A DNA stretch of 32,000 bases from Candidatus Saccharimonadota bacterium (GCA_965227835.1 OZ245768.1:480001-512000), one strand, 5' to 3'. Counted from the stretch's first letter, positions 1-32,000 are shown. Numbers and translations are program-made. The notes: generated by a model from the sequence alone, not told the origin.

Positions 1-569
1 ATTTTTTCTATTTCTTTTAAATAATTTTCTATGAATTTATAAAAAAATACATTTGCTAATACATCTAATTCTTTTTTTACACTAAAATCTCTTTTTGTTA
101 TTCAAATTCAATACCTATTTATAAACTCTTTTTTATGATTATTTAATATTTTATCATCTATAATTTCATTTCCGAAATCTTGTAAGTAAATTAAAAAATT
201 ATAGATTTTTATATAAGAATTAATATCAATTGAATTAAACAAATTCATATAAGGTTCCATATTAATTCAATTGTACATAATTTTTAATCGTATTTTTTTA
301 TTTATTACATCTATTATATTTATTAAATATGTTCTATTTATTATATTATTTAAATTATCTATAGGTATTCAGCTTAAATCTAAATCTCAGTAAATTCAAA
401 TTAGAAATCAATGATCATAAAAAAAAGTATGTTTTTCTAATTTCTCCCAGGAAATAATACCTTTAGATTCTTTAACTATTTTTTCATAATGGTTGAATTG
501 TAGAGGAAGTAACTTTCTTCTTAATTTTTCTTTCGAAGAAAAATAATTTTTTATTTTATTTAAAAGCAT
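1..569 (-). CDS. LRR-like repeat family protein, paralog 1 (C-terminal end runs off the window)
   Basis: ATG at 569-567 on the minus strand. The frame is free of TAA/TAG to position 1 with TGA read as Gly. The N-terminus MLLNKIKNYFSS and blocks of the C-terminal half are nucleotide-identical to the 613..1518 gene. Only one GDLDLSG-type repeat unit is present. Confidence 0.75.
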
Positions 570-612
570 TTATTTAACTATTAAAATTATAATTTTTAAA
601 TTATTTCTATTT

Positions 613-1518
613 TTAATTTGTTTTTCATATAGCTCTTTGAAGTTCATTACAAATCCTATTTTTTATTTCTTCTCAAAAATAATACTCTATATAATCAAGT
701 TTTTCTTCTAATTTTTTATAAACTTCTTTAGCATAATTTTTTCTTTCTTCCTCGCAGACTCAATTATTTTTCATTAGATTTATTTTTTCTATTTCTTTTA
801 AATAATTTTCTATGAATTTAACATAAAATATATTTATAAATAAAGACAATTGTTTTTTTACTATATTTGATCTTGCCATTTTTCAAGTTCAATATATGCT
901 TATAAGTTCTTCTTTATAAACATTTATTAATTCTTTATCTATATCTTTATCTTCAAAATCTTGTAAGTAAATTAAAAAATTATAGATTTTTATATAAGAA
1001 TTAATATTCATTGAATTATAAATACCCATATAAGGTTTCATATTGGTTCAATTGTATATAATTTTTCATCATATTTTTACTTCTTTTTTACCTATTTCAT
1101 ATAGTATATTACTTAAAGTATCTATAGTTATTCAACTTAGGTCTAAATCTTTTCAAACATATTCTAAACCTTTCAAATTTTCTATAAGAGATCAGTTTAA
1201 ATATAAACTTCATTTAATAATTTTTGATATTATTAAATCTTTTATTTTAGAATTAGTTAAATATAAATCTCATGAAATACCTTTTAAAAGAACTAAAAAT
1301 TCTATCGATACTCAGCTTAAATCTAAATTTCATTCCCAATAAATTGAAATTAAAATTCAATCTTCATGAAAAATACTATATTCTTCTAATTTTTCCCAAG
1401 TAATTACACCTTTAGATTTTTCAATTATTTCTTTATAATACTTGAATCTGCTAGTAAGTAATTTTTTTCTCAACCTCTCTTCGGAAGAAAAATAATTTTT
1501 TATTTTATTTAAAAGCAT
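613..1518 (-). CDS. LRR-like repeat family protein, paralog 2
   Basis: 301-codon minus-strand ORF, checked codon by codon, with stop TAA at 615-613. It has about four 20-22 aa units of the type LxxLxxVGxDLxLxGxxI (e.g. LKGLEYVGKDLDLSGITIDTL). No signal peptide is evident. Confidence 0.8.
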
Positions 1519-3640: not shown

Positions 3641-3828
3641 TAAAGTTGTAAAAATATATATTATTTATAATATTTTTAATTTTCAAATTTTTTAATTATT
3701 TTTTTGCAAATATAATCATTTAAAATAAAATGCCTTAGCTAATATAGATTTACTATATTTAAAAAAATAAGACCTATTTGAAATATAGCTAAAATCAATA
3801 AAAAAGATATATTTTAATCCATAAAAAA

Positions 3829-5754
3829 ATGCCTAATAAAAACAAAAAATTCATTCCAAAAATAAATTTCAAAAAACCACAAAAAAAACCAAACAGCACC
3901 AAACCATTTTTGGTTTTGTTTTTAATATCAGCCCTTTTTGTTTTAGTTTTGCCATATTTAAAGAAAGGTGAAATTTACACAGACACTAAAATAGGAATTA
4001 ACAAACTAGAAAAAAATTTTTCACAAGGGAAATATGAAAAAATTCTAATAGATAAAAATAAAGCATTTGCTACCTATTCTTGAACATGAGAACTAAGTGA
4101 TAAATGAAGAATGGTTGTAATAGATAATTGAATGAAAAAAATTGCTAGAGATGTGATAATACTTCCAAATAATGATTCTATAGAAGAACTAGGATTAAAA
4201 AACAATGAAATAGATACAATAATAGAAGTAAAAGATAACAGCCGTGCTCAATTTTGGGCAAATATGCTACCTACTATTCTCACAATATTACTTTTTTGAT
4301 TAGTAGCTTTTTTCCTTCTTTGAAAAATGTGATGAATGGCAAATAGTGCTATGACATTTAGTAAATCAAGAGCTAAACTTTATGACAAAGAAAAAGACAG
4401 AGTACTTTTTAAAGATGTAGCATGAGCAGAAGAAGAAAAACAAGAACTTTTAGAAGTAGTTGATTTTTTAAAAAATCCTAAAAAATATAAAGATTTATGA
4501 GCTAAAATACCTAGATGAACACTTCTTGTAGGTCCTCCTGGAACTTGAAAAACTTTGCTTGCAAGAGCCGTAGCATGAGAATCAAATGTACCATTTTTAA
4601 GTATAAGTTGATCTGAATTTGTAGAAATGTTTGTATGAGTATGAGCAGGTAGAGTAAGAGATTTATTTCAAAATGCTAAAAAAATGGCTCCAGCTATAAT
4701 ATTTATAGATGAAATAGATGCTATTTGAAAGAAAAGATGACCTTGAAATTGAGGATGACACGATGAAAGAGAACAAACATTGAATCAAATATTAACTGAA
4801 ATGGATTGATTTGACAATGACACAAATGTAATAGTTATGTGAGCAACAAACAGAGCAGATGTACTAGATAAAGCTCTTCTTAGACCGGGTAGATTTGATA
4901 GAAAAATAACTGTTAATCTCCCTAATTTATCAGATAGGGAAGAGATACTAAAAGTACATTCTAGGAATAAAAAAATTTCTAGAAATATAGATTTTAAATC
5001 ACTAGCAAGTCAAACTGTATGATTTTCATGAGCAGATATGTGAAATTTATTGAATGAAGCTGCAATAATAACAGCTAGAAAAAATGAGAAATCTATATGA
5101 AATAAAACTATAACTGAAGCTTTTGAAAGAATAGTTATGTGACTTAGAAAAAAATCTCAAGTAATGAATGAGCAAGAAAAGGAAATTACAGCTTATCATG
5201 AAGTATGACATGCTTTGGTATGAAAATTATTAAAAAATACAGATCCTGTACACAAAGTTAGTATAGTTTCTAGATGATGAGCTCTTTGAGTAACTTGGTT
5301 TTTACCAGAAAGAGATGCACTTCTTACATCAAAAGCTAAATATTTAGATGAACTAGCAACCCTTTATTGATGAAGAGCAGCTGAGGAAATATTTTTTGGT
5401 GAGCAAAATATAACAACATGAGCAAGTAATGATATAGAAAGAGCTACAAAAATAGCAAGAGCTATGGTTATGAGATTTTGAATGTTTGAAGAAATTTGAG
5501 CTGAAAATTTTGTTTGAGAACTTGATATTTATTCTGGACAATGACAAAAAATGAGTATATCCGAAGAAACAACAAAAAAGATAGATGAAAAAGTAAAAAA
5601 TGTATTGAAAGAAGCTTATAATATTGCACTTGATCTTATAAAGAAAAATAAAAAACTTCACGATAAAATATCAAAAGATTTACTTGAAAAAGAAGAAATA
5701 AGCAGGGAAGAGTTTGAAGCTTATTTTACGGAAAAAAGTACTCCTAAATCTTAA
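3829..5754 (+). CDS. ftsH: ATP-dependent zinc metalloprotease FtsH
   Basis: 641-codon ORF. It has an N-terminal TM segment, Walker A GPPGTGKT (the Gly after T is TGA at 4546-4548), Walker B IIFIDEID and a C-terminal M41 protease region. Track fragments 3829..4083 and 5551..5754 are in the same frame. Confidence 0.95.
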
Positions 5755-5762
5755 AGAATTAT

Positions 5763-6422
5763 ATGGAAAGTAACAGTTTCTTAGAAGCCAAAAGACATAT
5801 ATTTATATGAGATATACACTGATGTTTTGATGAGTTTATGCTTCTTTTGGAAAAATTAAAAATAACCATAAAAGATAAAATTTATCTGACAGGGGACTTG
5901 ATAAATAAATGACCAAAATCTTATGATACTCTGAAATTTGTATATGAAAATAGAAATAGATTTTTTTGTGTAATGTGAAATCATGAGAATTGATTTTTAA
6001 AATGGTTAAAATGAAATATCAAAACTAAAAATAACAAAGAAACTTTTTTAGATTTAAAAGAAAAACTTGATTTAGAACCACATTTAATGGATTTCGTAAA
6101 AGATTTGCCTTTGTATATAGATAAAGAAAATTTCTTACTTTTGCATTGATGAATAATACCTTGAAAAGATTTGGAAGAACATATTGCAGATGAAATAACT
6201 GAACTTAGAGAATATGAATGAAAAGCTTGGTATGAATATTATAAATGAGATAAAAAGATAATTTATGGACACTGGGCTTTAGGTTGATTAAATATAAGAG
6301 ATAATACAATATGACTTGATTCATGATGCGTGTATTGATGATACTTATCGGCTTACATTTTGGAAACAGGGGAGCTGATTAAACAAAAAGCTCTAAAAAC
6401 TTACAAAGAAATTAAAGTTTAA
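5763..6422 (+). CDS. Metallophosphoesterase (PPP family, ApaH/PrpE-like)
   Basis: 219-codon ORF, checked codon by codon. Motifs GDIHGCFDEF, GDLINKGP, GNHEN and HGG appear in the canonical order. Confidence 0.85.
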
Positions 6423-6739: not shown

Positions 6740-6757
6740 AAGGGGTCTTGACCCCTT
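6740..6757. repeat. Perfect palindrome AAGGGGTC-TT-GACCCCTT abutting the 20-bp repeat array
   Basis: 8+8 bp dyad read directly. A near-identical copy plus the following TTGCATTTT occurs at 17702..17726. Confidence 0.85.
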
Positions 6758-6896
6758 GCATTTTGTCTTGAATTACTGCATTTTGTCTTGAATTACTGCA
6801 TTTTGCCTCGATCCATTGCATTCTATCCTAAACTCTTGCATTTTGCCTCAACCCCTTGCATTTTATCCTAAACTCTTGCATTTTAGATATTGATCT
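6757..6896 (+). repeat. Seven tandem 20-bp direct repeats (TGCATTTTGYCTYRA-N5), iteron-like
   Basis: Units start at 6757, 6777, 6797, 6817, 6837, 6857 and 6877, each beginning TGCATT(T/C)T. Units 1 and 2 are identical. A 20-bp period is not a multiple of 3, so the array is non-coding. Confidence 0.9.
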
Positions 6897-7017
6897 AGTA
6901 ATTAATTAAGAAAATCCTAAAGATTAACATCTTTGTTATTACCAAGTAATTGATTCTTTATATAACAATAAAGATTCTATTATAAGGTTCAAAAATTTAT
7001 AATTTATTATTAAAAAA

Positions 7018-7629
7018 ATGAATGAAATTATAAGCTATATAGTTAATATAGCAGAACAATTTGGTTATGTTTGAATTTTTGTGATGATGACAATAGAATC
7101 AAGTTTTATACCTTTTCCATCTGAAGTTGCTATGATTCCTGCTTGATATTTATCAAGTATATGAAAAATGAATTTTTCAATAGCCTTTATAGCTTGAACA
7201 GCTTGAGCTTTACTAGGTGCAACTATAAATTATGTATTAGCTTATCATTTATGAGAAAAATTAACAGTTAGACTTATAAGGAAATATTGAAAATATTTCT
7301 TCTTAGAAGAATCTTCTTACCTAAAAGCTGAAAAATATTTTTTAAAACACTGAATTATAACTATTTTTCTAGCTAGATTTATTACTGTTATAAGGCAATT
7401 AATAAGTTTACCAGCATGAGCTTTTAGGATAAATTTTGCTAAATTTTTCTTTTATACAGGACTTGGAGCATGAATGTGGAATTTAGGTTTAATGTTTGTT
7501 TGATATGTGGCTTGAGAAAACAAAGAGCTCATAGAAAAATATTCCTATGAGCTTTTGATATGAGGATTAATTTTTATAATTGCTGTTTGAAGTATTTATA
7601 TTTATAGAAATTCAAAAAAGAAAGTTTAG
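7018..7629 (+). CDS. DedA family membrane protein
   Basis: 203-codon ORF, checked codon by codon, with stop TAG. Sequence features include YVGIFVMMTIESSFIPFPSEV...PAGY, several TM segments and the FxARFIxVIRQLISLPAG motif typical of DedA/SNARE-associated proteins. Confidence 0.85.
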
Positions 7630-8138: not shown

Positions 8139-8453
8139 TTATTCGTCAACAGTATGAGGATTTATTAGTTTATTATAATCTACTTCACCACTACTTATTT
8201 GTTCTTCTTCAAATCTTCTAAATTCATCTTTGTCTAGTAATTCTACTTCATCTAATCAATAAGATCAATTTTTTCAAGAACTATTTATTGCATTTGAATT
8301 TAAATAATAATCCTCTCAATTTTCTCCTGAATCTAAAATTTCTCAAGTATTAACACTAAAACAATCTAAAAAATTTTCCACATCTGAATCTAGTCATAAA
8401 CTTCAAAATCAAGAATTATCTAACCCGTCAGATATTAATTCAGCATTTGCCAT
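8139..8453 (-). CDS. Hypothetical small acidic protein (104 aa), N-terminus MANAELISDGLDN
   Basis: Minus-strand ORF, checked codon by codon, roughly a quarter Asp/Glu. It shares its promoter, 5' UTR and first 13 codons with the 8768..9265 gene. Confidence 0.7.
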
Positions 8454-8484
8454 AATTATAAAAATTAAATATTAAAGTATAATA

Positions 8485-8513
8485 ATTATAATATACTTAA
8501 TAAATTAAGTCAA
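8485..8513 (-). promoter_or_regulatory. Consensus sigma70-type promoter of the 8139..8453 gene
   Basis: On the minus strand: TTGACT (8513-8508), a 17-nt spacer, then TATAAT (8490-8485). It lies about 30 nt upstream of the ATG. Confidence 0.6.
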
Positions 8514-8658
8514 AAATCTAAAAAGTTTTTTTATTTATTCATTTATTATTATTTCTGGAGTAAGTAAGATCTATTTTAGAATCTTGAAATAGAATATATG
8601 AAGTTAAAACAATAGGGAATTATAGAATAATTTATTTTAAAATTTAAACACCAAAAGC

Positions 8659-8689
8659 AAAAATAGATACTTTTTAAGTATCTATTTTT
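8659..8689 (-). terminator. Hairpin terminator downstream of the 8768..9265 gene
   Basis: 13-bp stem aaaaatagatact/agtatctattttt with a 5-nt loop. Both arms carry T/A runs, so it could work in either direction. Confidence 0.5.
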
Positions 8690-8767
8690 AGAAATTTTAA
8701 ATACTAATAATTAAATTATTTTTTTAGGCTCTTTATATCATAAAATTTAAGTTCTTTAGAATCCACA

Positions 8768-9265
8768 TTAAAATTTACGTTTTTTAATCTTTGGATTATA
8801 TAATTTAGCTCCTGAACTATTTGCGATTTTTTCTTTACTATTTGGCCTTTCCCATTTGATTGAACCTTCATACGGTCCGAACATGATTCCTGTTTCTGCT
8901 CCAAATCAAAATTCACGTGTTTTACTAAGAATTTTCTGGTGTAAATATTCAATATCAACAAGATCAAAACCTTCTAAATTAAATCATGTTCTTTCAGCTT
9001 CATCTAATAGAGCTCTAAACTTATTATAATTTTCTAAAACATAGTGAATAGGCTCACTATCATAAAGAAGAGATAAAGCCTGTAATTCTAATAACATATA
9101 AATTACATTTGAAGGTTGAACTAATCTACCTATGATACTTTTCGTTCAATCTAAAGTTCTTAAAGTATTCTTTGACAATGAATCAATATTATTTCATGAA
9201 TTTAAACTTTTATCAACATTTAACTCATTATCTAACCCATCAGATATTAACTCACCATTTGCCAT
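8768..9265 (-). CDS. Hypothetical protein (165 aa), N-terminus MANGELISDGLDN
   Basis: Minus-strand ORF from ATG 9265-9263 to TAA 8770-8768; every in-frame tta/cta was checked. It is out of frame with the track ORF 8716..8967, which I judge to be an artefact. Confidence 0.7.
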
Positions 9266-9297
9266 AATTATAAAAATTAAAAATTAAAGTTATAATA

Positions 9298-9326
9298 ATT
9301 ATAATATACTTAATAAATTAAGTCAA
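9298..9326 (-). promoter_or_regulatory. Consensus sigma70-type promoter of the 8768..9265 gene
   Basis: On the minus strand: TTGACT (9326-9321), a 17-nt spacer, then TATAAT (9303-9298). It is part of the 150-bp duplicated block. Confidence 0.6.
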
Positions 9327-9347
9327 AAATCTGAAATTTTTTTCAAA

Positions 9348-10586
9348 TTATTCATTTATTATTATTTCTGGGACTTCAGGATGAGACAAAAAACCTTGTG
9401 GGGACATAGACTTTCAATATGCTCCAGACTGTGGCATAACCACATAATCTCATATATTTGCAGTAATTCAAGTTTTTCATTTAGCTAAATAATCAACAGA
9501 AGTACAAAAAGGTCAGTATATATTTACTAAATCTTCACTACAAACTCTTGCCTCCTCCAATCATAAATTTTTTAAAACATAGTTTATATCATCTTTTGTC
9601 TCAATATTTACTACATCTATATGATAATCTATTCACAAAACTTGAGGTCTTTTATGTGCATTTGTTCAAGCATAACAAAGTATTCATTTACTAGACTTTC
9701 ATACTTTTTTTATATCATTTATCTTAGTTACAAAATATCACATATCTGCTCACAAATATCTTCATAATTCTAATATAAAAGTCTTTTCTCAAAAACCATA
9801 TTTATCTATTAACTCTCATAATCACTCACTATATTTTTGTATATCAAACTTACTAAATCAACCGTAATCAACTCAAAATCATCAACCAAAATCTATAGTT
9901 CTAAAATTTTTTCAAGTTTTATTTTCTATTTCAGCTACAAACTTAAAAGTTTCATCTACACTTCTTAAAAGAACTCAAGCACTCATTATTCAAGTAGCTG
10001 GATACATATGAAATCAATCAACTTTTATATTTTCAAACTTAGATAATATCTTTAAAATTTCTATTGTATCATCTTGTGCTACTCAAAATTGTGTATCTCA
10101 ACTTCAAAGTTTTACTCAAGCCTCTCAATCCAAAAATTTATGTTTGGTATTTAGTCTAAGAAGTATATTTTGAACAATTCAGATTTCTCTAGCTTTTTTA
10201 TTTATCCTTATAGCTTCAACTAAAGATTCTACATTTAGATATCATATATTATTTTCTATACAAAAATCTAGCTCTTTAGAAGTTTTACTTGGTCATGTAT
10301 ATATGACACGACTTAGATCCTTCTCTCAGTTTGATAAAACTATATCTATCTCTCATCTAGATGCCACTTCTATTCATTTTATATTAGAATGTTTCAAAGC
10401 TTCATTTACCACTTTTTTATGAGGGTTTACCTTCATAGCAAAATAAGTATCTACTTTGCTTGGAAGACAAGATAAAATAGACATTTTAGATCTCATTACT
10501 TCAAGATCATATATATACATAGAATCAAGACTAGTATTTTCTCTTATAGTATTTACTATATTTTCAGGAGTTTTATATCTTTCCAT
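9348..10586 (-). CDS. Group IV PLP-dependent decarboxylase (diaminopimelate/ornithine/carboxynorspermidine decarboxylase family)
   Basis: 412-codon ORF, checked for stops. Motifs seen: YFAMKVNP (the PLP lysine), GIEVASRGE, GPSKTSKEL, IDFGGGFG, and C-terminal SGAYGKSMS. Confidence 0.85.
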
Positions 10587-17765: not shown

Positions 17766-18488
17766 CTACCTAGGAGAAACTTTTTTTATGAAAAAATCCT
17801 CTAATGATGATTTAGCTAAAATATTTTTAACTCTCTCTCACTCAACTATCAATTTACCTTTATCTATTATAGAAACTCTATCACATATACTTTCCACATC
17901 AGACAATATATGAGTATTTAAAAAAACAGTAGTTTTTTTCTTTTTCAAATCAGAAATAAGATTTTTTACATCCATTCTTCAAATAGGATCAAGTCAACTC
18001 ATAGGTTCATCTAAAAATAAAAGCTTAGGATTATTTATTATAGATTGAGCCAAACCTATTCTTTGAAGCATACCTTTAGAAAAATTTTTTAAATATTTAT
18101 CTCATTCTCATTTAAGTCAGACTTTATCTAACAAATCCAAAACAGTTTTTTTAAGTTTACCTCAAGATAATCAAAAAAACTTACCGTTAAATTCTAAAAA
18201 CTCATTTGCTTTTAAATATTTATACAGATAAGTATTTTCAGGCATAAATCATATATTGTTCTTATTTCCTATATTAAGACCTTTTTCTCATAAAACCTCT
18301 ATATTTCAAACATCAAAAGAAGAAATTCACATTATACACTTCATAGTAGTAGTTTTTCAAGCTCAATTAGGTCATAAAAATCAATAAATTTCTCATGGTT
18401 TCACATCAAAACTTATATTATCAAGTATTTTTTTTCAATTTATAGTTTTTGTTAATCATTCCACTTTTAAAACCATTTTTGATTTCAT
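17766..18488 (-). CDS. ABC transporter ATP-binding protein (single ABC domain, no adjacent permease)
   Basis: 240-codon ORF, checked codon by codon. Walker A GPNGAGKTT, signature FSKGMLQR and Walker [13 protein letters not shown]. Confidence 0.9.
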
Positions 18489-18526
18489 ATTATATTGTAA
18501 AAAAAGATAAAATAATTATAGTAATA

Positions 18527-19633
18527 ATGAAAAAATTACAAAATAAAAAAACAGATATGAATCCCCAAATTATAGTTTGATTAGATTTGAGATTTATAAA
18601 AATAAATGACCCCTATTCTAGTTTTGTTATAGAATTAATTAATTTTATAATTCGAAGCAAGAAAGATTTTTTTTATAATATCTATATAAACAAAGATATA
18701 GAAAGACTATTTGAAAAGAATAATAATGTAAAAATATTTAAAATAAAAAGTAAAGTTTCAAGTTTCAAAGATCAAATATTTTTCAAAGATAAAACACAAA
18801 ATGAAGATTTATTTATATTTTTTGACTGGAGGGTACCTATAAACATAAAAAAGAAATACATAGTTTTTATACCGGATTTAGCAGAACTACATTTCTTGCC
18901 AAAATTGAGCTTTATACAAAAAGCAATAAAAAACTACATATTTACATCAAGTTGTAAAAAAGCAAAAAATATAGTTTGTTTCAATGATATTTTATCAGAA
19001 GAAATAAATGATAAACTAAATATAAGAGAAGATAAAATAAAGGTAATAAAGGCATTTTTCAAAAAATATGAACAAATAGATAAAGATGAAGAAATAAATA
19101 TAAATATAAAAACTAGATATGGGATAGAGTGAGAATATTTAATATATGATTGATGAAATTCACTGGAAAAATGATTAGATAAACTCATAGATGTTTTTGA
19201 GAAGATTAGAGAGCAAAAACTAGATATTTCTCTTTTGATTTTGGATACGCAAACTATAAAAGATATAGAATTTAGAAAAAAAGTATTGGCAAAAAATCTA
19301 AATGAAAGAATATTTTTTATTTGAGAGGTAAACAGATTTGAAACAAAGTATTTTTATAAAAACTCTCTAGGGGTTATATATCCTGTACTTTATAGTATTT
19401 TCCCTTTTTTTATGGAAAAATCTTTGAATTATAATTGTAATATATTATCATCAAATTTGAAAACCATAAAGGATATATTTTGAGATAATATAGGATATTT
19501 CAATCCAAATATAAGTGACACTATTTTAAAATCTATAACAAAATTGAAAAAGAAGAAAAACAATTATTCAAAGATACTTGAAAGAGAATGATTTGATAAG
19601 TCTTGTGAAACTTTGATTGAATTAATATATTAA
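18527..19633 (+). CDS. Glycosyltransferase (GT-B fold, group 1 / GT4-like)
   Basis: 368-codon ORF, checked. N-terminal IVGLDLRFI, typical of GT4 enzymes; the C-terminal half has ...IGEV...Y.... Assignment is by overall pattern only. Confidence 0.65.
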
Positions 19634-19656
19634 TAGGTAAATATAATTTCAAAAAA

Positions 19657-20340
19657 ATGCAACTAACAGATAGAAATATACTTATATTAAAAATAATAAT
19701 AGAAGAATTTTTGAAAAATGGTGATTTAATAGGCTCAAAACTCTTACTTTCAAAGTTTGATTTATGAGTAAGTCCTGCGACTGTTAGGTGAGATATGGCA
19801 AAACTTGAAAAAATGAATTTAGTTTTTCAACCCTATAATTCTGCATGAAGAATGCCTACTTCAAGCTGAATTAGAGTATATGTAGATTATATGATGAAAG
19901 AAACTCCTTCATATTTTTTAAATGAGAACAATGTAGAGATATCTTGAAATATAAAAAACTTTTCTGATTATGTTTATAATATAACGAATTCTTTGTCAAA
20001 AAATACTATGGAGTTGAGTTTTTTTAGTATCCCTGAACAAAACATATTATGATATTCTTGAATATCAAACTTTATAAAAATAAATAAGTTAGAAGATAGC
20101 AGTAAGATAATAGAAATGCTTGAAGATAAAATAAGGTTTATGGATTTTTTATCTAGTTTATCATTAAAACCTGGGATAAATTTATTTATATGAGACGAAA
20201 ATAGTATAAATTATCTTAAAAAATTCTCAATAATTATAAAACCTATAATTATAAACAGTGAAAAGGGTTATATATGAATAATATGATCAATCGGGCAAAA
20301 TTATAGCTTTAATATAGCTGCTATAAAAGGTATAATATAA
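19657..20340 (+). CDS. hrcA: Heat-inducible transcription repressor HrcA (short form, 227 aa)
   Basis: ORF checked codon by codon. The N-terminal winged helix LTDRNILILKIIIEEFLKNGDLIGSKLLLSKFDLGVSPATVRGDMAKLEKMNLVFQPYNSAGRMPTSSGIRVYVDYM matches the HrcA consensus (SAGRxPTxxGYRxYVD). Confidence 0.85.
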
Positions 20341-20345
20341 AAAAC

Positions 20346-20373
20346 TTGACTTATTAATAAAAACTATTAAGAT
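20346..20373 (+). promoter_or_regulatory. Promoter of minigene A
   Basis: TTGACT (20346-20351), a 16-nt spacer, then TAAGAT (20368-20373). An identical copy lies 252 bp downstream. Confidence 0.5.
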
Positions 20374-20409
20374 ACAAAATACAATTTTATTTTTTAACTA
20401 TAAAAAGTT

Positions 20410-20592
20410 ATGGAAAACAATGACGTAGGTATTCAATGTAAAGGTCCTCAGACTATAACAGACTTAAGCAAACTAAAATATATTTGATCAAATTTAGATT
20501 TAGGTTCTATTGATCATTTACCTCAACTAATTAAAAGTTCTACGGGACAAATCCTAGATTCAATTAATAATGATTTGAGTGATTCTAAATAA
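20410..20592 (+). CDS. Small protein A (60 aa) with one LRR-like unit
   Basis: MENNDVGIQCKGPQTITDLSKLKYIGSNLDLGSIDHLPQLIKSSTGQILDSINNDLSDSK. It is preceded by an in-frame TAA and ends at TAA. The first 23 codons are identical to minigene B. Confidence 0.65.
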
Positions 20593-20597
20593 AAAAC

Positions 20598-20625
20598 TTG
20601 ACTTATTAATAAAAACTATTAAGAT
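20598..20625 (+). promoter_or_regulatory. Promoter of minigene B
   Basis: Exact copy of 20346..20373. Confidence 0.5.
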
Positions 20626-20661
20626 ACAAAATACAATTTTATTTTTTAACTATAAAAAGTT

Positions 20662-20823
20662 ATGGAAAACAATGACGTAGGTATTCAATGTAAAGGTCCT
20701 CAGACTATAACAGACTTAAGCAAACTAAAATGTGTTTGATTAGATTTTGATTATATCGAAAGTGAATCTGAATTAGCTAGAAGCTCTACAGAAAAAATTT
20801 TAGGAAAACCTCAAGATAAATAA
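20662..20823 (+). CDS. Small protein B (53 aa), paralog of A with a divergent C-terminus
   Basis: MENNDVGIQCKGPQTITDLSKLKCVGLDFDYIESESELARSSTEKILGKPQDK, ending at TAA. Confidence 0.65.
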
Positions 20824-20836
20824 TATAAAGCAAAAC

Positions 20837-20864
20837 AAAAAAAGACAACTAGTTGTCTTTTTTT
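20837..20864. terminator. Bidirectional terminator between the minigenes and trxA
   Basis: Perfect 28-bp palindrome aaaaaaagacaact/agttgtcttttttt, with A and T runs on either side. It sits between convergent genes. Confidence 0.7.
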
Positions 20865-20881
20865 GTTTTTCAAGTTAATTT

Positions 20882-21196
20882 CTACATATGGCTATTCAAA
20901 GCAGATTCAAGTTCATCCAAAGATTTTACTCATACAAGAGGTTCTTGAGCCAATTCTCAATCTTTAAAAATAAGAATTGTAGGAATAGACATAACTCTAA
21001 ATTTGGAAGCCAAATCTGGATTTTGATCCACATTTATTTTAGCTATTTTAGCTTTTCAATCCATTTTCTCAGAAAGTTGCTCTAAAACAGGAAGCATAGT
21101 TTGACAAGGACCACACCATTCAGCCCAAAAATCAACCAAACTAACACCAGAAGAAATCTCTTGCTGGAAATTATCATTGTTTAATTCTACTGCCAT
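20882..21196 (-). CDS. trxA: Thioredoxin
   Basis: 104-codon ORF. Active site WCGPC, with Trp encoded by TGG (21118-21116). Typical motifs [15 protein letters not shown] and F.DG are present. Confidence 0.95.
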
Positions 21197-21419
21197 AATT
21201 TTTCATTTTAAAATTTAAAATAATAATTTCTTGAAAAGTTAAAAACCTAAAAATATATTATTTCAAGAAACACAACTGAAAAATACTATTAAAATATTTG
21301 AAAAATGCAAAAATAAAAACTACCAAAGATTTTTTGATGTTTCTTTGTAAATAATTAAGATGTATATTCTTTTAAAAAACTAAAAGGGGATCTAAAAATT
21401 AACATCTATTAAAAAATAA

Positions 21420-22442
21420 ATGCTAGAAAATTATTTTTACATCATACTTTTTATATTTTGAAGCATATTTTGAAGTTTTGCATCAGTACTGATATATAGA
21501 CTAAAATCAAAAGAAAGATGAATATTTGCCTGAAGAAGTCATTGCAATAAATGTAACCATAAACTGTGAGCTCTAGAATTAATCCCATTTTTATCTTGGA
21601 TAAAAAATTTTTGAAGATGTAAATATTGTAAAGAAAAAGTATCTATTATTTATCCCCTTCTTGAATTATCTACATGAGTATTGTTTTTTCTGATATGATA
21701 TTTCTTGATAGATTTTGAGTTAATAAAAAATTGAAACTCAAACGAAACCATAAAATTATTTTTTTGGCTTATAATAGGATTTATAACTATAATATATAGC
21801 TTTTATGATATATTATTTTTAGAGATACATGATTGAGTTATGATAGTTTGAATAGTAATTTCATTAATAGCTATAATACTTGAATCTCTTGGTGTAATAA
21901 ACATATTTCCCTATCTATCCATAGGAAATACAGATATAGTTTTAAATATTGTATCAATAATAATATTGATATACAGTATATGACTTTTGTATATTATAAT
22001 GTTTAAAGAACTTCAAATAAAATATGACTTTTTAATACTTATTCTAATATGAACAATTATTTACTTCTTTTTGAGATGAACAAATAGCAGTATTGAAGAT
22101 TTTATAGCAATTAATTCTCTTGTTTGAGTAATTATAATATTTGGTTTTTTATTTTTACAAATAGCAGTAAGTAACGGTGCTTGGATGTGATGATGAGATT
22201 TGAGAATAGCAATACTTTTATGAATTTTAGTTTGATACAGTTTTAGCATTGAAACATTATTTTTAACATATATAGTATGAAGTATTATATCAATTTTTTT
22301 TATAATTTATAAAAAATCTAAACTTTGATTTAAAAATAAAATAGAAACTCAAGTACCTTTTTGACCTTTTTTAGCTATATGATTTTTTCTAAGCATTTTT
22401 ATATGACTTCCCTTAACTTCTATAATATTGATATATAACTAA
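21420..22442 (+). CDS. pilD: Type IV prepilin peptidase / N-methyltransferase-type A24 peptidase (full length)
   Basis: 340-codon ORF, checked codon by codon, with ATG directly after an in-frame TAA. N-terminal Cys-rich domain GSFASVLIYRL...CNKCNHKL...IPFLSWI...GRCKYCKEKVSIIYPLLEL. Catalytic regions YDILFLEIHD and GGGDLRI (GGG written as three TGA, 22188-22196), plus PFGPFLA. The gene is invisible in the standard-code track. Confidence 0.9.
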
Positions 22443-27578: not shown

Positions 27579-27917
27579 TTACATACCAGGTAGTTTAGGA
27601 ATACCTCCATTTCACATATCAAGTCACATTGCTGACATAACTCATTGCATATTTGAGGCTGCAACTTCCTGAGATTTTTTAACTCATTTATTAACTGCTT
27701 CTGCAATAGCATTGGATAAAGATTCTTTTTGAGAATCATTTAATCAAGGAATCAAACTATCATTTTCAAATTCTACTTTTTCAACTTTCATTTTCCCGTT
27801 TATAGAAACAACAAGCCCCCCTACTTCTGCTTCTATTAGTGTATTTTCAAGTTCTTTTTCTATTTTCATAGCTTCTTGTTGTAATTTCAACATTTCTCAT
27901 GCTTTTGAAAAATCCAT
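27579..27917 (-). CDS. ybaB: Nucleoid-associated protein YbaB/EbfC
   Basis: 112-codon ORF, checked. Sequence MLKLQQEAMKIEKELENTLIEAEVGGLVVSINGKMKVEKVEF...AIAEAVNKGVKK... The track ORF 27548..27739 is out of frame with it. Confidence 0.85.
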
Positions 27918-28038
27918 ACTTTTAAAAGTTATATATTTAAATTTTTTGTAAAAATGATTATATAAACATTAAATTTTTTGCAAATAGTTTTTTATTGTGT
28001 TAATATATGAGTGTATTTTAAAAAATAACTTTTTAATT

Positions 28039-28962
28039 ATGTCTACTACAAGTACAAATGATGATGATTTAATAATCATAGAAGATGATACTAAAGAGCT
28101 AGAAAGTGAATGAAATAAAGAAGCTCAAAAAGTTGATTCTTTAAAAATAGATAATGATGACAAACAAGATTTAATATCTTTTGATGATGATGAAGAAAAA
28201 AAGGATGAAGAAAAAATAGAGATTAATACTGATGATGAAAATCAGTGAGAAAAGAAAGTTGAAAAAGAAGGTGATTCTTCAGAATTAAATATAAATTTAG
28301 GAGATGAAGATAATTCTTTAAATATAAATTTAGAAGAAGATGATGAAAGTAAAGAATTAAATTTGGATTTAGATACTGAGAATGAAAAAGAAACTTCAAA
28401 TTTAGATTCTGACGATAATAAAAATGAGCTAAATTTAGATAGCTTAAATTTAGATAATACTAATGATAATTCATGAATAGATTTAGAAGAAAAAACAGAT
28501 GATAAAAAAGAAGAAGAAAATTCTTTATCATTGTGAGATTCAAATGAATCAAAATCATCTTTAGATTTAGAAGAAGAAGAAAATAAAGAACAAGAATTTA
28601 CAGATAATTCTTGAACTGATGATAATAAAGATGAAACTATGTCTTCTATATTGTGAGATACTATTGATAAATTAAATACTAGAAAGAATGTATTGGAAAC
28701 AGATATTGAAAATAAAGAGATAAATATAAAGGATATAGAAATGGAAATAAGTAAATTACAAGAAGAAAAAAGACAAATTAGAGTTGAAGTTAAAGATTTA
28801 CAAAATGAAAGTAAAAAGATAGAGACAAATATAGATTCACTAGAAAAAATGAAAAATGAAGAATCTGAAAATACTATTAGGAATCACAATAAAGAAAGAA
28901 GATCAGCTAGAGGAAATTTCAATAATATAGCTCCTAAAAAAGATAACAAAATCTCTAAATAG
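28039..28962 (+). CDS. Highly acidic low-complexity protein with a C-terminal coiled coil (307 aa)
   Basis: ORF checked codon by codon. The N-terminal 200 aa are rich in D/E/N with reiterated LN(I/L)(N/D)L motifs. The C-terminal segment ETDIENKEINIKDIEMEISKLQEEKRQIRVEVKDLQNESKKIE has heptad character. Confidence 0.7.
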
Positions 28963-28972
28963 TATAATATTG

Positions 28973-29012
28973 AAAAAAGAAGCTAAAACATAAAAATTTT
29001 AGCTTCTTTTTT
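28973..29012. terminator. Bidirectional terminator between convergent genes
   Basis: 16-bp stem aaaaaagaagctaaaa/ttttagcttctttttt with an 8-nt loop. The right arm overlaps the stop codon of the LRR gene (29001-28999). Confidence 0.7.
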
Positions 29013-30123
29013 TTGTCAATTTTTCTTTCATCTCTTTTCTAAACTCATCTAAGAGTCTATTTTTTATTTCTTCTCAAAAATAATGCTCTATTTCATGAAA
29101 TTTATCATCTAGTTTTTTATAAATTTCTTCTATTTTTTCATCAATTTCATTCTTGGAAGCTCAATTTTTTTGCATTAGTTTTATTTTATGACCATAGCTT
29201 AGAAAATTTTCTACAAACTGATAATAAAATATATTCGCTAGGATATTTAATTCTTTTTTAACTTTATCATCTCTTTTTGCTTTTCAAGATCAATATCTAT
29301 TTATAAACTCTTTTTTTTGATCATTTAATAATTCTTCATCTGTAATTTCATCTTCAAAAACTCAAAAACTATTTAAAAACAAAGAAATATCAATATAACT
29401 TTTAAAATTCGTTCAATCATATATGATTTCTCATCTTACTTTTATAGAATTTGTAATTATTTCTTTTAATATATTTTTTAGAGCATTCCATGATATTCAG
29501 TTTAAAGTTAAATCATTTCAAACAATATGTAACTTCGGTAAATTTTCTATAAGAGTTCATTGTAAATTTAAATCGTATCAAACATATTCTAATTTTGGTA
29601 AATCTTTTATAGAAGTTCATTGTAAGCTTAAATCAAATCAAACATTTTCTAAATTTGGTAAGATTTCTATAAAAGTTCATTGTAAAAATAAACTCAGTCA
29701 AACTTCTTTTAATTTTGGTAAATCTTCTATAGAAGTTCACTGTAAGTTTAAGTCAAATCAAACATTTTCTAAATTTGGTAAGCTTTCTATAAGAGTTCAT
29801 TGTAAATTTAAATTCATTCAAACTTCTTCCAATTTTGACAAACTTTTTACAAAAGTTCATACTAGCACTAAAGTTCATCAAACACTTTTTAAATATGATA
29901 AATCCGTTATAGGTTTATACTTTAAATTTAAATCTCATTTCCAATAAATTCAATCTAATCCTCAACCAGATTTAAATTTGCTATATTTTTCTAGTTTCTC
30001 CCAAGACATAATACCACTTGATTCCTTAAACATTCTTTCATAGTCTATAAATTGTTCAGGAGTTAGTTTCCTTTTAAGATTTTCTTTCGGAGAGAAATAA
30101 TTTTTTATCTTTTCTAAATTCAT
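28999..30123 (-). CDS. LRR-like repeat family protein, paralog 3 (about 8 repeat units)
   Basis: 374-codon ORF, checked codon by codon. The N-terminus MNLEKIKNYFSPKENLKRKL is related to paralogs 1 and 2. The centre is a tandem run of 20-aa units LPxLExVGxDLxLQGTxIEx. The C-terminal domain is shared with the paralogs (FINRYG.GK...ANIFYY.F.EN). Confidence 0.8.
29497..29940 (-). repeat. Tandem 60-bp coding repeats (about 7 units, with a 120-bp alternating super-period)
   Basis: Successive 60-nt sequence lines 29521-29880 align column for column. Units alternate between a ..caaacattttctaaatttggtaag.. type and a ..caaacttcttttaattttggtaaatc.. type. Confidence 0.9.
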
Positions 30124-30206
30124 TTTTTATGTACTATATAGATTTTATATTTAACACTATAGTTGTATAATACATATTGTCAATTACAAAAAGTAGAATT
30201 TAAAAG

Positions 30207-30238
30207 AAAACCCTCAAGTTTTAAAACTTGGGGGTTTT
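30207..30238 (-). terminator. Hairpin terminator downstream of the YtxH-like gene
   Basis: 14-bp stem aaaaccctcaagtt/aacttgggggtttt with loop ttaa. One position gives G.U on the + strand and C.A on the minus strand. Confidence 0.55.
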
Positions 30239-30328
30239 GTAAATTATTTAAAAATTTTATTTTAAAAAATTATCTAAAAAATCTTTACTTTTATAATAAC
30301 GAAATAATTTTGCCATGACTCCTTAAAT

Positions 30329-30808
30329 CTATTTAATTTTTTTTACAATTTCATCTTTTATTTGCATAGCTCAAGATAAAATCTTATCTTTCAGCTCCAA
30401 AGCTTTTTGAGGAGCTATTTCTTTTATTTCATCAATTTTATCTTTTTGCTCATCATAGATTTTATCTAATTCATCTAATCAAGCCTTAGCTGAATTTTTT
30501 CATTTATTTTCTAAATCTTTCAAAGTTTTCTCTGCTTTTTTCATATAAGCATTTGATAATTTTAAAAGTTCTTGTTTTTTGGTTTCAAATTTTTTTCTAT
30601 TCTCAGGAGTCAAAATTTCTTTTTTTAAAGATTCAAATAATTCTTTTTGAGTATCAGTAAAGTCTTGAATTAAAAAAGCAAAAACATCTCATCAATCTTT
30701 TTTTATTTTTTCAATTTTTTTCTTTTTTTTAGGATCAAGAGACGAAACAATCATAGATCAAGCTATGTATCATCAAATAAGAGCAATAGATTTTCAAAGA
30801 AATCACAT
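30329..30808 (-). CDS. YtxH-like general stress protein (N-terminal TM helix plus coiled coil)
   Basis: 159-codon ORF, checked codon by codon. Sequence MGFLGKSIALIGGYIAGSMIV, followed by a long charged helical region; stop TAG. Confidence 0.7.
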
Positions 30809-30988
30809 ACATTTGTTTATTAAGCGAATAAAATTATTTTTGTAAAAGCATTTTTATTAAGATAAAAAGCATTTTATGATAAAATCATTATATATTTTTT
30901 GAAATTTATCGCAAAATATTTTTGTCTTTTAAGACTAAATTTATAATATTGCTTTCAAAAAAATACATTAAAAAATAACAAACAAAAT

Positions 30989-32000
30989 ATGAGTTACAAA
31001 AATTTTTCTGAAAAATATAAAGAAACACTTATAAATTCTGAGATTAAAGTCAAAGAAATATGAATAAAAGATTTAAGAATAGAAGATGTATTTTTAGAAA
31101 TCGTAGCAACGGTATCATTGGCAACAAAAGATGTATTTACTCTATATTGAATAGATGAAAAATTAGTTATGGAAATAATAAATCAATGAGAATTAAACGA
31201 AAAACCAGAAAAAAGAAAATGAGTATATTCTTGAATGAACAGTGAATTAAAAAACATAATATTATCAAGTGTAAAAATTGCTGCAAACTTCAAGAAACCA
31301 AAAGCAAGTATAGAAGATTTTATATTAGCACTATTACAAAACTCCTCTTGGTTACCTAACTTTTTAGACTATATTGGAATAATTCCAAGTGATTTAGAAA
31401 CAAATATAATAGACCTAAACAAAGCATGAATATCTGATTGAGAACAAATTTGAAGCGAGGCAACTAAAAATGAAATAGACGAACTTCTTTGAAGTCTAAC
31501 ACAAAATCTATTTGAATGATTATCATCAGGAATGTCTACACCATTTGATTGAAATAAAAAAGTGGAAAACAAAAAAGATTATGAATCTGAAACACCTATA
31601 CTAGACTTTTTTTCTGAAGATCTTACACATTTAGCCCGTGAAGACAAAATAGACAAGGTAATTTGAAGAGAAGTTGAAATAAACAGATTAATAGCAATAT
31701 TAAACAGAAAAACAAAAAATAACCCTGTATTAATATGAGAACCATGAGTAGGTAAAACAGCAGTAGTAGAATGATTAGCAAGAGCAGTAGCTAACTCAAA
31801 AGTACCTTTTTCAATGAAAAACAAAAAAATACTTGCTCTTGATATAAATTCAATGGTAGCTTGAACAAAATACAGATGAGAGTTTGAAAGCAGAATAAAA
31901 CAAGTTATAGAAGAAGCCTCAAAAATAGAAAATGAAATAATACTTTTTATAGATGAAATACATACAATAATATGAGCTTGATCATGAGAATGAACACTAG
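30989..32000 (+). CDS. Clp/Hsp100 AAA+ ATPase (ClpC/ClpB type), 5' part; continues beyond the window
   Basis: N-terminal Clp_N-like repeats, then [60 protein letters not shown] (Walker A with two TGA Gly at 31736-31738 and 31745-31747) and Walker B ILFIDEIHTI. Confidence 0.9.

What the first reader, a model, noticed from the sequence alone, without database searches (positions are those of the whole stretch)
20338..20864. Twin minigenes: a 252-bp tandem duplication with 142 bp of perfect identity, then abrupt divergence (constant N-terminus, variable C-terminus)
**Seen directly.** 20338-20479 and 20590-20731 are identical base for base. The identical stretch covers a TTGACT-16-TAAGAT promoter, the 5' UTR and codons 1-23 (MENNDVGIQCKGPQTITDLSKLK). 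From codon 24 onward identity drops to roughly half:
- A: YIGSNLDLGSIDHLPQLIKSSTGQILDS...
- B: CVGLDFDYIESESELARSSTEKILGK...

The proteins still align, so the two genes are homologous over their full length. The sharp boundary therefore argues for recent gene conversion, or strong nucleotide-level constraint on the 5' module, rather than uniform divergence.

The conserved part and the start of the variable part resemble one unit of the LRR-like family in this window (compare ITDLSYLKSVGGTLVL in 28999..30123).

**Inference.** These could be a leader-plus-variable-core peptide pair, mini-LRR modulators or decoys of the large LRR proteins, or donor cassettes for repeat variation. The prepilin peptidase gene lies 600 bp downstream, but the peptides lack a G/F prepilin cleavage motif.
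Basis: partly seen in the sequence, partly recalled or inferred. Interest (0 to 1): 0.7.

Follow-up and report, generated by a model that had tools for sequence, protein, structure and literature searches.

The report
Twin LRR-derived minigenes beside hrcA
Two tiny adjacent genes in a Gracilibacteria genome (which reads UGA as glycine) are a lineage-specific tandem duplication of a fragment related to the organism's own leucine-rich-repeat proteins; their front halves were probably made identical by gene conversion, so the feature is real but is an ordinary young, weakly constrained gene pair of unknown use.

Summary
20337-20479 and 20589-20731 are identical (143 nt, period 252). After that, nucleotide identity falls to 63%. 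The genome uses code 25 (UGA = Gly). Read that way, the units encode a 60-aa ORF (20410-20592) and a 53-aa ORF (20662-20823).

In five independent relatives, conserved synteny leaves only 5-139 nt (a terminator) between hrcA and trx. The 2x252-nt module is therefore a lineage-specific insertion.

No other member was found in 5.8 billion proteins, 1.84 billion representatives, GTDB genomes, JGI metagenomes or IMG/VR.

Residues 16-40 are homologous to one 20-residue repeat of a nearly genome-specific LRR family (three genes in the window). The TGA-encoded Gly sits at the same position in both.

The tails have dS of about 0.5 and omega of about 0.7-1.1. The heads have 0/143 differences (P about 4e-29) and no RNA structure. 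This points to recent gene conversion.

Codon usage in both tails is gene-like, so translation is plausible.

I found no leader-peptide, prepilin, DGR, RiPP or cassette features.

Verdict: a young LRR-fragment micro-ORF pair riding on the hrcA transcript, function unknown. Low to moderate interest.

The parts
20337..20479 (+). Identical block, copy 1 (143 nt). It contains the last bases and TAA stop of hrcA, a promoter-like site, a 36-nt leader, and codons 1-23 plus the first base of codon 24.
   Evidence: identical base for base to 20589-20731
20589..20731 (+). Identical block, copy 2 (143 nt). It starts at the TAA stop of minigene A.
20346..20373 (+). Promoter-like site TTGACT-16-TAAGAT upstream of minigene A. 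Unverified: 9/12 consensus match.
20598..20625 (+). Identical promoter-like site upstream of minigene B.
20410..20592 (+). Minigene A, 60 aa under code 25: MENNDVGIQCKGPQTITDLSKLKYIGSNLDLGSIDHLPQLIKSSTGQILDSINNDLSDSK. Codon 26 (20485-20487) is TGA = Gly. Residues 16-40 form one LRR unit.
   Evidence: codon-usage LLR +17.2, typical of genes
20662..20823 (+). Minigene B, 53 aa: MENNDVGIQCKGPQTITDLSKLKCVGLDFDYIESESELARSSTEKILGKPQDK. Codon 26 (20737-20739) is TGA = Gly. The LRR consensus survives only in residues 16-28, and the stop comes earlier than in A.
20832..20869 (.). Hairpin terminator (17-bp stem, with T-runs on both strands). It is the only terminator-like site in 19500-21500. It corresponds to the ancestral bidirectional hrcA/trx terminator seen in relatives.
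19657..20340 (+). hrcA (227 aa). No terminator separates it from the minigenes, so read-through transcription is expected.
   Evidence: (PF01628)
20882..21196 (-). Thioredoxin gene, convergent with the minigenes. It marks the right edge of the ancestral gap.
28999..30123 (-). LRR-family gene F3 (374 aa, eight 20-residue repeats of the form VGxDLxLQGTxIExLPxLEx). It is a homologue of the minigene repeat unit.
613..1518 (-). LRR-family gene F2 (301 aa).
1..569 (-). LRR-family gene F1. The N-terminal 189 aa lie in the window; the full protein is P0127 (245 aa).

Best explanation
This is a lineage-specific pair of tandemly duplicated micro-ORFs, and the explanation has five steps.

1. **Insertion.** In an ancestor of this Gracilibacteria strain, a stretch of about 250 nt was inserted between the hrcA stop codon and the shared hrcA/trx terminator. 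Its coding part derives from a repeat unit of the organism's own fast-evolving LRR family. (The insertion is shown. The derivation is shown by homology. The donor gene is not identified.)
2. **Duplication.** The unit then duplicated in tandem. Each unit begins at the TAA stop of the preceding gene. (Shown.)
3. **Divergence and conversion.** The two copies diverged to about 63% nucleotide identity. A recent gene-conversion tract then re-homogenised the 5' 143 nt, covering the promoter-like site, the leader and codons 1-23. (Inferred from 0/143 differences against a tail dS of about 0.5.)
4. **Transcription and translation.** No terminator precedes the minigenes, so they are at least transcribed as the tail of the hrcA mRNA, and possibly from their own promoter-like sites. 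Their start context and codon usage match real genes of this genome, so they are probably translated into acidic, soluble peptides of 53 and 60 aa carrying about one LRR unit. (Inferred.)
5. **Constraint and function.** Selection on the tails is weak (omega about 0.7-1.1), and copy B has lost most of the LRR consensus. The pair behaves like young proto-genes with no demonstrable function. If the peptides do act, the most likely mode is as single-repeat LRR mimics that pair edge-on with the family's solenoids or with their ligands. (Speculative.)
For: **Duplication and boundary:**

**Code 25:**

**Insertion**
- Synteny is ABC-GT1-hrcA-gap-trx-pilD-179aa in L002/L003, L004, L005/L006, L007/L008 and L012.
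- The gap there is 5-139 nt and holds only a terminator hairpin.
- No DNA or peptide remnant of the unit is present.
- The gap in the window is about 545 nt.

**Orphan status:**

**LRR derivation**
- blastp of A residues 16-56 against F3 gives E = 4e-7.
- The repeat-unit HMM scores A at 20.5 bits and B at 13.1 bits, with 0/1000 shuffles as high.
- phmmer against 1.84 billion representatives hits family member P0130 at E = 1.8e-5.
- A residues 16-34 are 68% identical to the P0130 repeat junction, E = 3e-9.
- The TGA-encoded Gly is at the same repeat position.

**Gene conversion**
- The head has 0 differences; the tail has dS of 0.47-0.60; P = 4e-29.
- The 5' RNA has no excess structure, z = 0.10.
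- Mismatches are of ordinary kinds.
- The same mosaic pattern occurs at 8415-8558 / 9227-9371 and between F1 and F2.

**Coding**
- Codon-usage LLR is +17.2 for A, +18.3 for B, and +12.6 and +10.5 for the tails. True genes give 20.6 +/- 7.3 and wrong frames give -31.5 +/- 9.1.
- No gene in the window uses a Shine-Dalgarno sequence, and the minigene start context is typical.
- There is one terminator only, and it lies after B.
Against: - There are no expression data.
- Omega of about 1 in the tails fits non-functional drift equally well.
- Under neutrality both ORFs would stay open with P of about 0.12, so their intactness is weak evidence.
- The promoter-like match is weak (9/12) in an AT-rich region full of such matches.
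- The donor LRR gene is not identified, and DNA similarity to the LRR genes in the window is nil.
- The closest relative (L009 organism, ClpB 98% identical) could not be examined at this locus, so the age of the insertion is unknown.
- Conversion cannot be told apart from a second, partial re-duplication of the 5' block.
Confidence: 0.6

Rival explanations
1. The units are untranslated relics. An LRR-gene fragment was inserted and duplicated, and it now decays as non-functional DNA in the 3' UTR of hrcA. The open frames are leftovers.
For: - Omega is 0.68-1.08 in the tails.
- B has lost the LRR consensus and ends earlier than A.
- No homologue exists anywhere.
- Neutral ORF survival is not very improbable, about 0.35 per copy.
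Against: - Both diverged tails keep frame-specific codon usage at the mean of real genes.
- The only clear indel is in frame.
- Each unit keeps an ATG with a typical start context and a -35/-10-like site.
Confidence: 0.22
2. The identical 143 nt are held by nucleotide-level constraint, such as a regulatory RNA, an operator or a promoter module, rather than by gene conversion.
For: - The block covers a promoter-like site and a leader.
- It contains a TTATTAATAA palindrome between the hexamers.
- A second gene pair in the window also shares its 5' module.
Against: - There is no Rfam match.
- The RNA fold gives z = 0.10.
- No CIRCE element is present.
- Constraint strong enough to fix every one of 143 positions, including about 13 synonymous sites, is implausible for an element absent from all relatives.
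Confidence: 0.07
3. The pair are precursors of secreted peptides, with a conserved leader and a variable core (bacteriocin, RiPP or pheromone), or substrates of the prepilin peptidase.
For: The layout has a constant N-terminus and a variable C-terminus. A prepilin peptidase gene lies 600 nt downstream and an ABC ATPase lies upstream.
Against: - There is no GG/GA/GS leader end with the LSxxELxxIxGG spacing.
- There is no G|F(M) site followed by a hydrophobic segment.
- There is no signal peptide or hydrophobic stretch (sequence).
- pilD, trx and the ABC gene are in the same places in relatives that lack the minigenes.
- There is no Pfam, NCBIfam, PADLOC or PHROG hit.
- The 'leader' is homologous to an LRR repeat.
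Confidence: 0.04
4. The units are silent donor cassettes that recombine with the large LRR genes to vary their repeats, or a DGR template/variable-repeat pair.
For: - The LRR family is hypervariable. The F3 orthologue is only 58% identical in a strain whose ClpB is 98% identical, and the repeat number differs.
- The minigenes carry one repeat unit.
Against: - The longest DNA match to any LRR gene in the window is 13 nt, too short for homologous recombination.
- Each unit has its own start, stop and promoter-like site.
- Mismatches are not adenine-specific.
- No reverse transcriptase is evident among the ORFs of the window (not scanned exhaustively).
Confidence: 0.03
5. The tandem arrangement is an assembly artefact that merges two strain variants of a single minigene.
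For: The perfect repeat of 143 nt is close to common maximum k-mer sizes and read lengths. Reads are not available.
Against: - The A-tail to unit-B junction is a novel sequence. It shares only about 9 nt with the hrcA to unit-A junction, so a graph mis-join is not expected.
- The contig is 1.49 Mb.
- The tails differ by 37% and by an indel, which is far more than typical strain variation.
Confidence: 0.03

Closest known systems
Concerted evolution (partial gene conversion) between tandem paralogues, for example families with homogenised 5' regions such as the Mycoplasma vlp genes or duplicated tuf genes (from general knowledge, not tested here)
   Same: There are two adjacent paralogues. One tract is kept identical, here the promoter, leader and first codons. 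The rest diverges, and the boundary between the two parts is sharp.
   Different: The family has only two members and is confined to one genome. There is no signal peptide or surface-antigen character, no phase-variation tract, and no evidence of selection on the variable part.
20-residue beta-solenoid LRR proteins of the VGGxLxLxxTxIxxLP type (solved example: Vibrio FlrP, PDB 8z5u)
   Same: The window's F-family matches the FlrP chain over its repeat region (E = 7.7e-7). The minigene peptides carry one unit of the same repeat.
   Different: The minigenes have about 1-1.5 units, too few for a solenoid. They lack the family's N- and C-terminal domains. FlrP has a Sec signal and is a flagellar component, and nothing of that applies here.
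Taxonomically restricted (orphan) small ORFs, or proto-genes, born from fragments of existing genes
   Same: There is no homologue outside one genome. The ORFs are short. Omega is about 1. They lie in a 3' UTR-like position downstream of a conserved gene. They derive from a pre-existing coding repeat.
   Different: Here the ORFs are duplicated and partly homogenised. Their codon usage is already fully gene-like.
Double-glycine leader peptides / class II bacteriocin or pheromone precursors
   Same: The peptides are small, arranged in tandem, with a conserved N-terminus and a variable C-terminus.
   Different: There is no GG-type cleavage motif, no C39-peptidase ABC exporter, no immunity gene, and the peptides are hydrophilic and acidic throughout.

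Membership tests
Leucine-rich repeat (20-residue bacterial beta-solenoid class, FlrP-like) | Sequence match to the repeat consensus (I-x-x-L-x-x-L-x-x-V/I-G-x-x-L-x-L) | tested here: met
   The unit HMM scores A at 20.5 bits and B at 13.1 bits, with 0/1000 shuffles as high. blastp against family repeats gives E as low as 3e-9.
Leucine-rich repeat (20-residue bacterial beta-solenoid class, FlrP-like) | An array of several consecutive repeats able to form a solenoid | tested here: not met
   Only residues 16-40 of A and 16-28 of B align to the repeat. That is at most about 1.5 units.
Lineage-specific F-family (N-domain + LRR array + C-domain; F1/F2/F3, P0124-P0128, P0130) | Conserved N-terminal domain of about 60 aa (…KLxPxxFxDYExMVxESxGIISWEKLE…IYW) | tested here: not met
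   Minigene residues 1-15 show no similarity to it.
Lineage-specific F-family (N-domain + LRR array + C-domain; F1/F2/F3, P0124-P0128, P0130) | Conserved C-terminal domain of about 150 aa (…IIYDG…HYFGEEIKNR…) | tested here: not met
   It is absent: the peptides end after 53 and 60 aa. The tails do not align to it.
Lineage-specific F-family (N-domain + LRR array + C-domain; F1/F2/F3, P0124-P0128, P0130) | The repeat Gly of the V/I-G motif is encoded by TGA | tested here: met
   Codon 26 is TGA in both minigenes. The family shows W (table-4 reading of TGA) at the same position.
Double-glycine leader peptide precursors | A leader ending in GG/GA/GS with LSxxELxxIxGG spacing, plus a C39-peptidase ABC exporter nearby | tested here: not met
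   The sequence lacks the motif. The only ABC gene nearby is an ATPase that is conserved in relatives without the minigenes.
Type IV prepilin-like substrates of peptidase A24 | A short basic leader, G|F/M cleavage site, Glu+5 and a hydrophobic helix of about 20 aa | tested here: not met
   The peptides have no such segment and are hydrophilic throughout. The adjacency to pilD is ancestral.
Diversity-generating retroelement (TR/VR pair) | Differences confined to adenine positions of one copy | tested here: not met
   Mismatches occur at all four bases in both directions, with 23 transitions and 20 transversions.
Diversity-generating retroelement (TR/VR pair) | A reverse transcriptase gene adjacent | not tested
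   No RT-like ORF was noticed in the ORF list, but not every ORF in the window was scanned against Pfam.
Known RNA families (Rfam 15) | A covariance-model match at or near the gathering score | tested here: not met
   Only sub-threshold hits to the terminator hairpin. The 5' block folds no better than shuffles.

The most novel reading that the evidence does not exclude
The two peptides are expressed, heat-shock-linked (hrcA-cotranscribed) single-repeat LRR micro-proteins. They dock onto, cap or compete with the solenoids of the strain's hypervariable LRR family. Concerted evolution keeps a constant head while the tails diversify. This would be a miniature constant/variable modulator system born de novo from a repeat fragment in a CPR bacterium.
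Probability: 0.08. Interest if true: 0.6.

Novelty: new member of a known kind. Interest (0 to 1): 0.25.

Why it matters
If the ORFs are translated, this is a clean, datable example of gene birth in a reduced, recoded CPR genome. A repeat fragment was captured in the 3' UTR of a conserved gene, then duplicated, then partly homogenised by gene conversion.

It also shows that the genome's LRR family and several small gene pairs evolve by mosaic recombination.

There is a practical point too. The public translations of this genome use table 4 (Trp) where the code is 25 (Gly). This corrupts the key Gly of every LRR repeat and would mislead structure or homology work.

Beyond that, nothing indicates a new mechanism.

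Tried and rejected
- **Table-11 ORF calling** breaks every gene. It was replaced by my own table-25 calling.
- **Curated libraries:** Rfam, Pfam, NCBIfam, PADLOC and PHROGs give nothing for the peptides.
- **GTDB genome scan** gave one hit. It proved to be a chance match in a non-coding frame of a Verrucomicrobia MAG.
- **JGI metagenome and IMG/VR scans** found no relatives.
- **Exact-product look-ups** for P0001, P0125 and P0130 found nothing on record. I could therefore not fetch the DNA of the candidate donor paralogue or more of the source genome.
- **The listing of cluster members** gave no accession or name.
The admissible database version carries Trp-26, so I did not use it.
- **Mechanism checks:** a CIRCE search found none. 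A DGR-style adenine bias is absent. An RNA structure in the identical block is absent.
- **Literature:** a search for Gracilibacteria plus LRR found nothing relevant. The search for 8Z5U only showed that the PDB match is Vibrio FlrP, which has the same repeat class but no functional bearing.
- **Weak phmmer hits** P0129 and P0131 are unrelated repeat proteins.

Full report
**1. Observation.**

The sequence shows a tandem direct repeat of period 252. Positions 20337-20479 and 20589-20731 are identical at all 143 positions. Immediately after the block, identity falls. A MAFFT alignment needs one 6-nt (in-frame) indel, and the aligned tail codons are 63% identical at nucleotide level.

Under table 11 both ORFs stop at codon 26.

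**2. Genetic code and organism.**

- The window is 23.7% G+C.
- Reading TGA as sense raises ORF content (ORFs of at least 100 aa) from 1,998 to 12,803 aa.
- TGA sits exactly at Gly positions of invariant motifs: Walker A as XPNGVXKT in ABC-F, GPPGTXKT in FtsH, XPNXAXKTT in an ABC ATPase, and FKDXE / VX in thioredoxin.
- The code is therefore 25.
- HrcA homologues that carry a source name are annotated Candidatus Gracilibacteria, with one annotated Candidatus Peribacteria.
- The public protein collection holds this genome's proteins translated with table 4, so Trp replaces these Gly residues.

Under code 25, minigene A is 20410-20592 (60 aa) and minigene B is 20662-20823 (53 aa).

**3. Local anatomy.**

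- Each unit begins at the TAA stop of the preceding gene: hrcA for unit A, and minigene A for unit B.
- Each unit carries a TTGACT-16-TAAGAT site. It matches 9 of 12 consensus positions, and such matches are frequent here (27 found against 14.9 expected).
- Each unit has a 36-nt A/T-rich leader and an ATG.
- No gene in the window has a Shine-Dalgarno sequence, and the minigene start context looks like that of bona fide genes.
- The only terminator-like hairpin in 19500-21500 lies after B, at 20832-20869. The pair should therefore at least be transcribed by read-through from hrcA.
- There is no Rfam family, no excess RNA structure in the identical block (z = 0.10), and no CIRCE operator in the window.

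**4. Comparative context.**

HrcA's nearest relatives are 68-75% identical. I fetched the locus from five independent lineages: L002/L003, L004 (GCA_000404985.1), L005/L006, L007/L008 (GCA_964586815.1) and L012.

- All show the same gene order: ABC ATPase, GT1 glycosyltransferase, hrcA, gap, thioredoxin (convergent), prepilin peptidase, then a 179-aa gene.
- Their hrcA-trx gap is 5-139 nt and contains only a terminator hairpin.
- Neither blastn nor peptide searches of code-25 ORFs find any remnant of the unit.
- In the window the gap is about 545 nt.
- The module is therefore an insertion specific to this lineage. Its closeness to the prepilin peptidase and the ABC gene is inherited synteny, not a functional link.

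**5. Family size.**

- The word-indexed search of 5.8 billion proteins returned only the two peptides themselves, from a single 1,489,121-nt contig.
- An exhaustive phmmer scan of 1.84 billion representatives returned only the twin as a full-length homologue.
- Pattern scans of GTDB species representatives, JGI metagenome contigs and IMG/VR found no relative.
- Pfam, NCBIfam, PADLOC and PHROGs have no match.

**6. Origin: an LRR repeat fragment.**

The window carries three members of a family with an N-terminal domain, a variable number of 20-residue repeats (VGxDLxLQGTxIExLPxLEx) and a C-terminal domain: F1 at 1-569, F2 at 613-1518 and F3 at 28999-30123, all on the minus strand.

- F3 matches the LRR chain of PDB 8z5u (E = 7.7e-7). 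That chain is Vibrio FlrP, a beta-solenoid LRR protein. This establishes the repeat class only.
- The family is itself almost genome-specific. It has five paralogues on the same contig, plus P0124 and P0130 elsewhere.
- Peptide A residues 16-40 (ITDLSKLKYIGSNLDLGSIDHLPQL) align in register with one repeat. Supporting scores are blastp E = 4e-7 against F3, a unit HMM score of 20.5 bits for A and 13.1 bits for B with 0/1000 shuffles as high, 68% identity over 19 aa to the junction between the last two repeats of the N-terminal half of P0130 (P0130a; E = 3e-9), and a library-wide phmmer E = 1.8e-5.
- The Gly of the V/I-G motif is TGA-encoded in both the family and the minigenes.
- At DNA level there is no usable similarity to the LRR genes in the window (at most 13 nt). 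The donor is either another paralogue (P0125 is a candidate, but its DNA was not retrievable) or the event is old.

**7. Evolution of the pair.**

Nei-Gojobori estimates under code 25 are as follows:

| Region | Result |
|---|---|
| Head | 0 synonymous and 0 non-synonymous differences in 23 codons |
| Head | 0 differences in 74 non-coding nt |
| Tail | dS 0.47-0.60 |
| Tail | dN 0.41-0.51 |
| Tail | omega 0.68-1.08 |

- At the tail's rate, 143 identical positions have P of about 4e-29.
- Tail mismatches involve all bases (23 transitions, 20 transversions). This is ordinary point divergence, not DGR mutagenesis.
- Together with the lack of RNA structure, the simplest account is an old duplication followed by a recent conversion tract covering the 5' 143 nt.
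- The same mosaic pattern is seen twice more in the window. One case is 8415-8558 against 9227-9371, which covers the upstream region plus about 15 codons of two adjacent minus-strand genes at 87-94% identity, decaying to 40-60%. The other is between F1 and F2, whose ends are nearly identical while their middles differ.

**8. Are they genes?**

- A frame-specific codon-usage likelihood trained on 22 confident genes of the window scores A at +17.2 and B at +18.3. The two diverged tails score +12.6 and +10.5.
- True 60- and 33-codon windows score 20.6 +/- 7.3 and 11.1 +/- 4.8. Wrong frames score -31.5 +/- 9.1 and -17.3 +/- 7.1.
- Survival of both ORFs under neutral drift has P of about 0.12, or roughly 0.04 when the in-frame indel is included. 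That is weak support on its own.
- Translation is therefore plausible but unproven.
- The absence of purifying selection, and B's loss of most of the repeat consensus and its earlier stop, indicate weak constraint.

**9. Alternatives.**

- Leader-plus-core secreted peptides and prepilin substrates fail their defining features (no GG or G|F motif, no hydrophobic segment, no dedicated genes).
- Donor cassettes lack DNA homology to their supposed targets.
- An assembly artefact is unlikely, because the A-tail to unit-B junction is a novel sequence and the tails differ by 37% plus an indel. Only reads can settle it.

**10. Verdict.**

The leader/core, pilin and cassette ideas are not supported.

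This is a lineage-specific, LRR-fragment-derived pair of micro-ORFs with a recently homogenised 5' half and no demonstrable function. Interest is low to moderate (0.25). It is a new member of a known kind.

Noticed in passing
whole window (e.g. 1683-3428, 3802-5754, 17766-18515, 20882-21196): The genome uses genetic code 25 (UGA = Gly): TGA occupies the Gly positions of Walker-A motifs and of thioredoxin. Public protein entries for this 1.49-Mb contig are translated with table 4, so Trp is shown instead of Gly. This corrupts, among other things, every LRR repeat.
   Followed up: yes
window 8139-9371 (minus strand): 8415-8558 vs 9227-9371: This is a second adjacent gene pair with a shared 5' module. 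The upstream region has a perfect TTGACT-17-TATAAT site, and the first ~15 codons (MAN[A/G]ELISDGLDN) are 87-94% identical. The bodies (110 and 171 aa, acidic, no Pfam hit for the first) diverge to 40-60% identity. The mosaic pattern is the same as in the finding.
   Followed up: partly
window 28999-30123 vs L009 10001-11011: ENA contig ERZ25074195:ctg43749 comes from a very close relative. ClpB is 98% identical over its N-terminal 336 aa, and DNA is 84-89% identical over window 27852-31998. Yet the LRR protein at the F3 position is only 58% identical and has fewer repeats (336 vs 374 aa). This is a hypervariable locus.
   Followed up: partly
window 1-1518 (minus strand), F1/F2 = P0127/P0128: These tandem LRR-family paralogues have nearly identical N-termini and C-terminal ~60 aa, but different middles and repeat numbers. 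F1 has almost no repeats. This suggests recombination or conversion and repeat loss within the family. The family has only five members in this genome and two proteins elsewhere in the searched collections.
   Followed up: partly
window 6745-6884: An intergenic tandem array of seven 20-nt units (consensus GTCTTGAACTCTTGCATTTT, 72% matches, also readable as period 40) lies between the ORFs at 5748-6422 and 7003-7629. Its nature is unknown.
   Followed up: no
window 19657-20340 and whole window: hrcA is present, but no CIRCE-like operator (TTAGCACTC-N9-GAGTGCTAA, up to 3 mismatches) occurs anywhere in the 32 kb. In this lineage hrcA is not followed by grpE-dnaK.
   Followed up: partly
L010, L011, L013 (relatives' contigs): Several metagenomic contigs from relatives end within a few bases after hrcA. 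This hints at an assembly-breaking feature, or low coverage, just downstream of hrcA in those populations.
   Followed up: no
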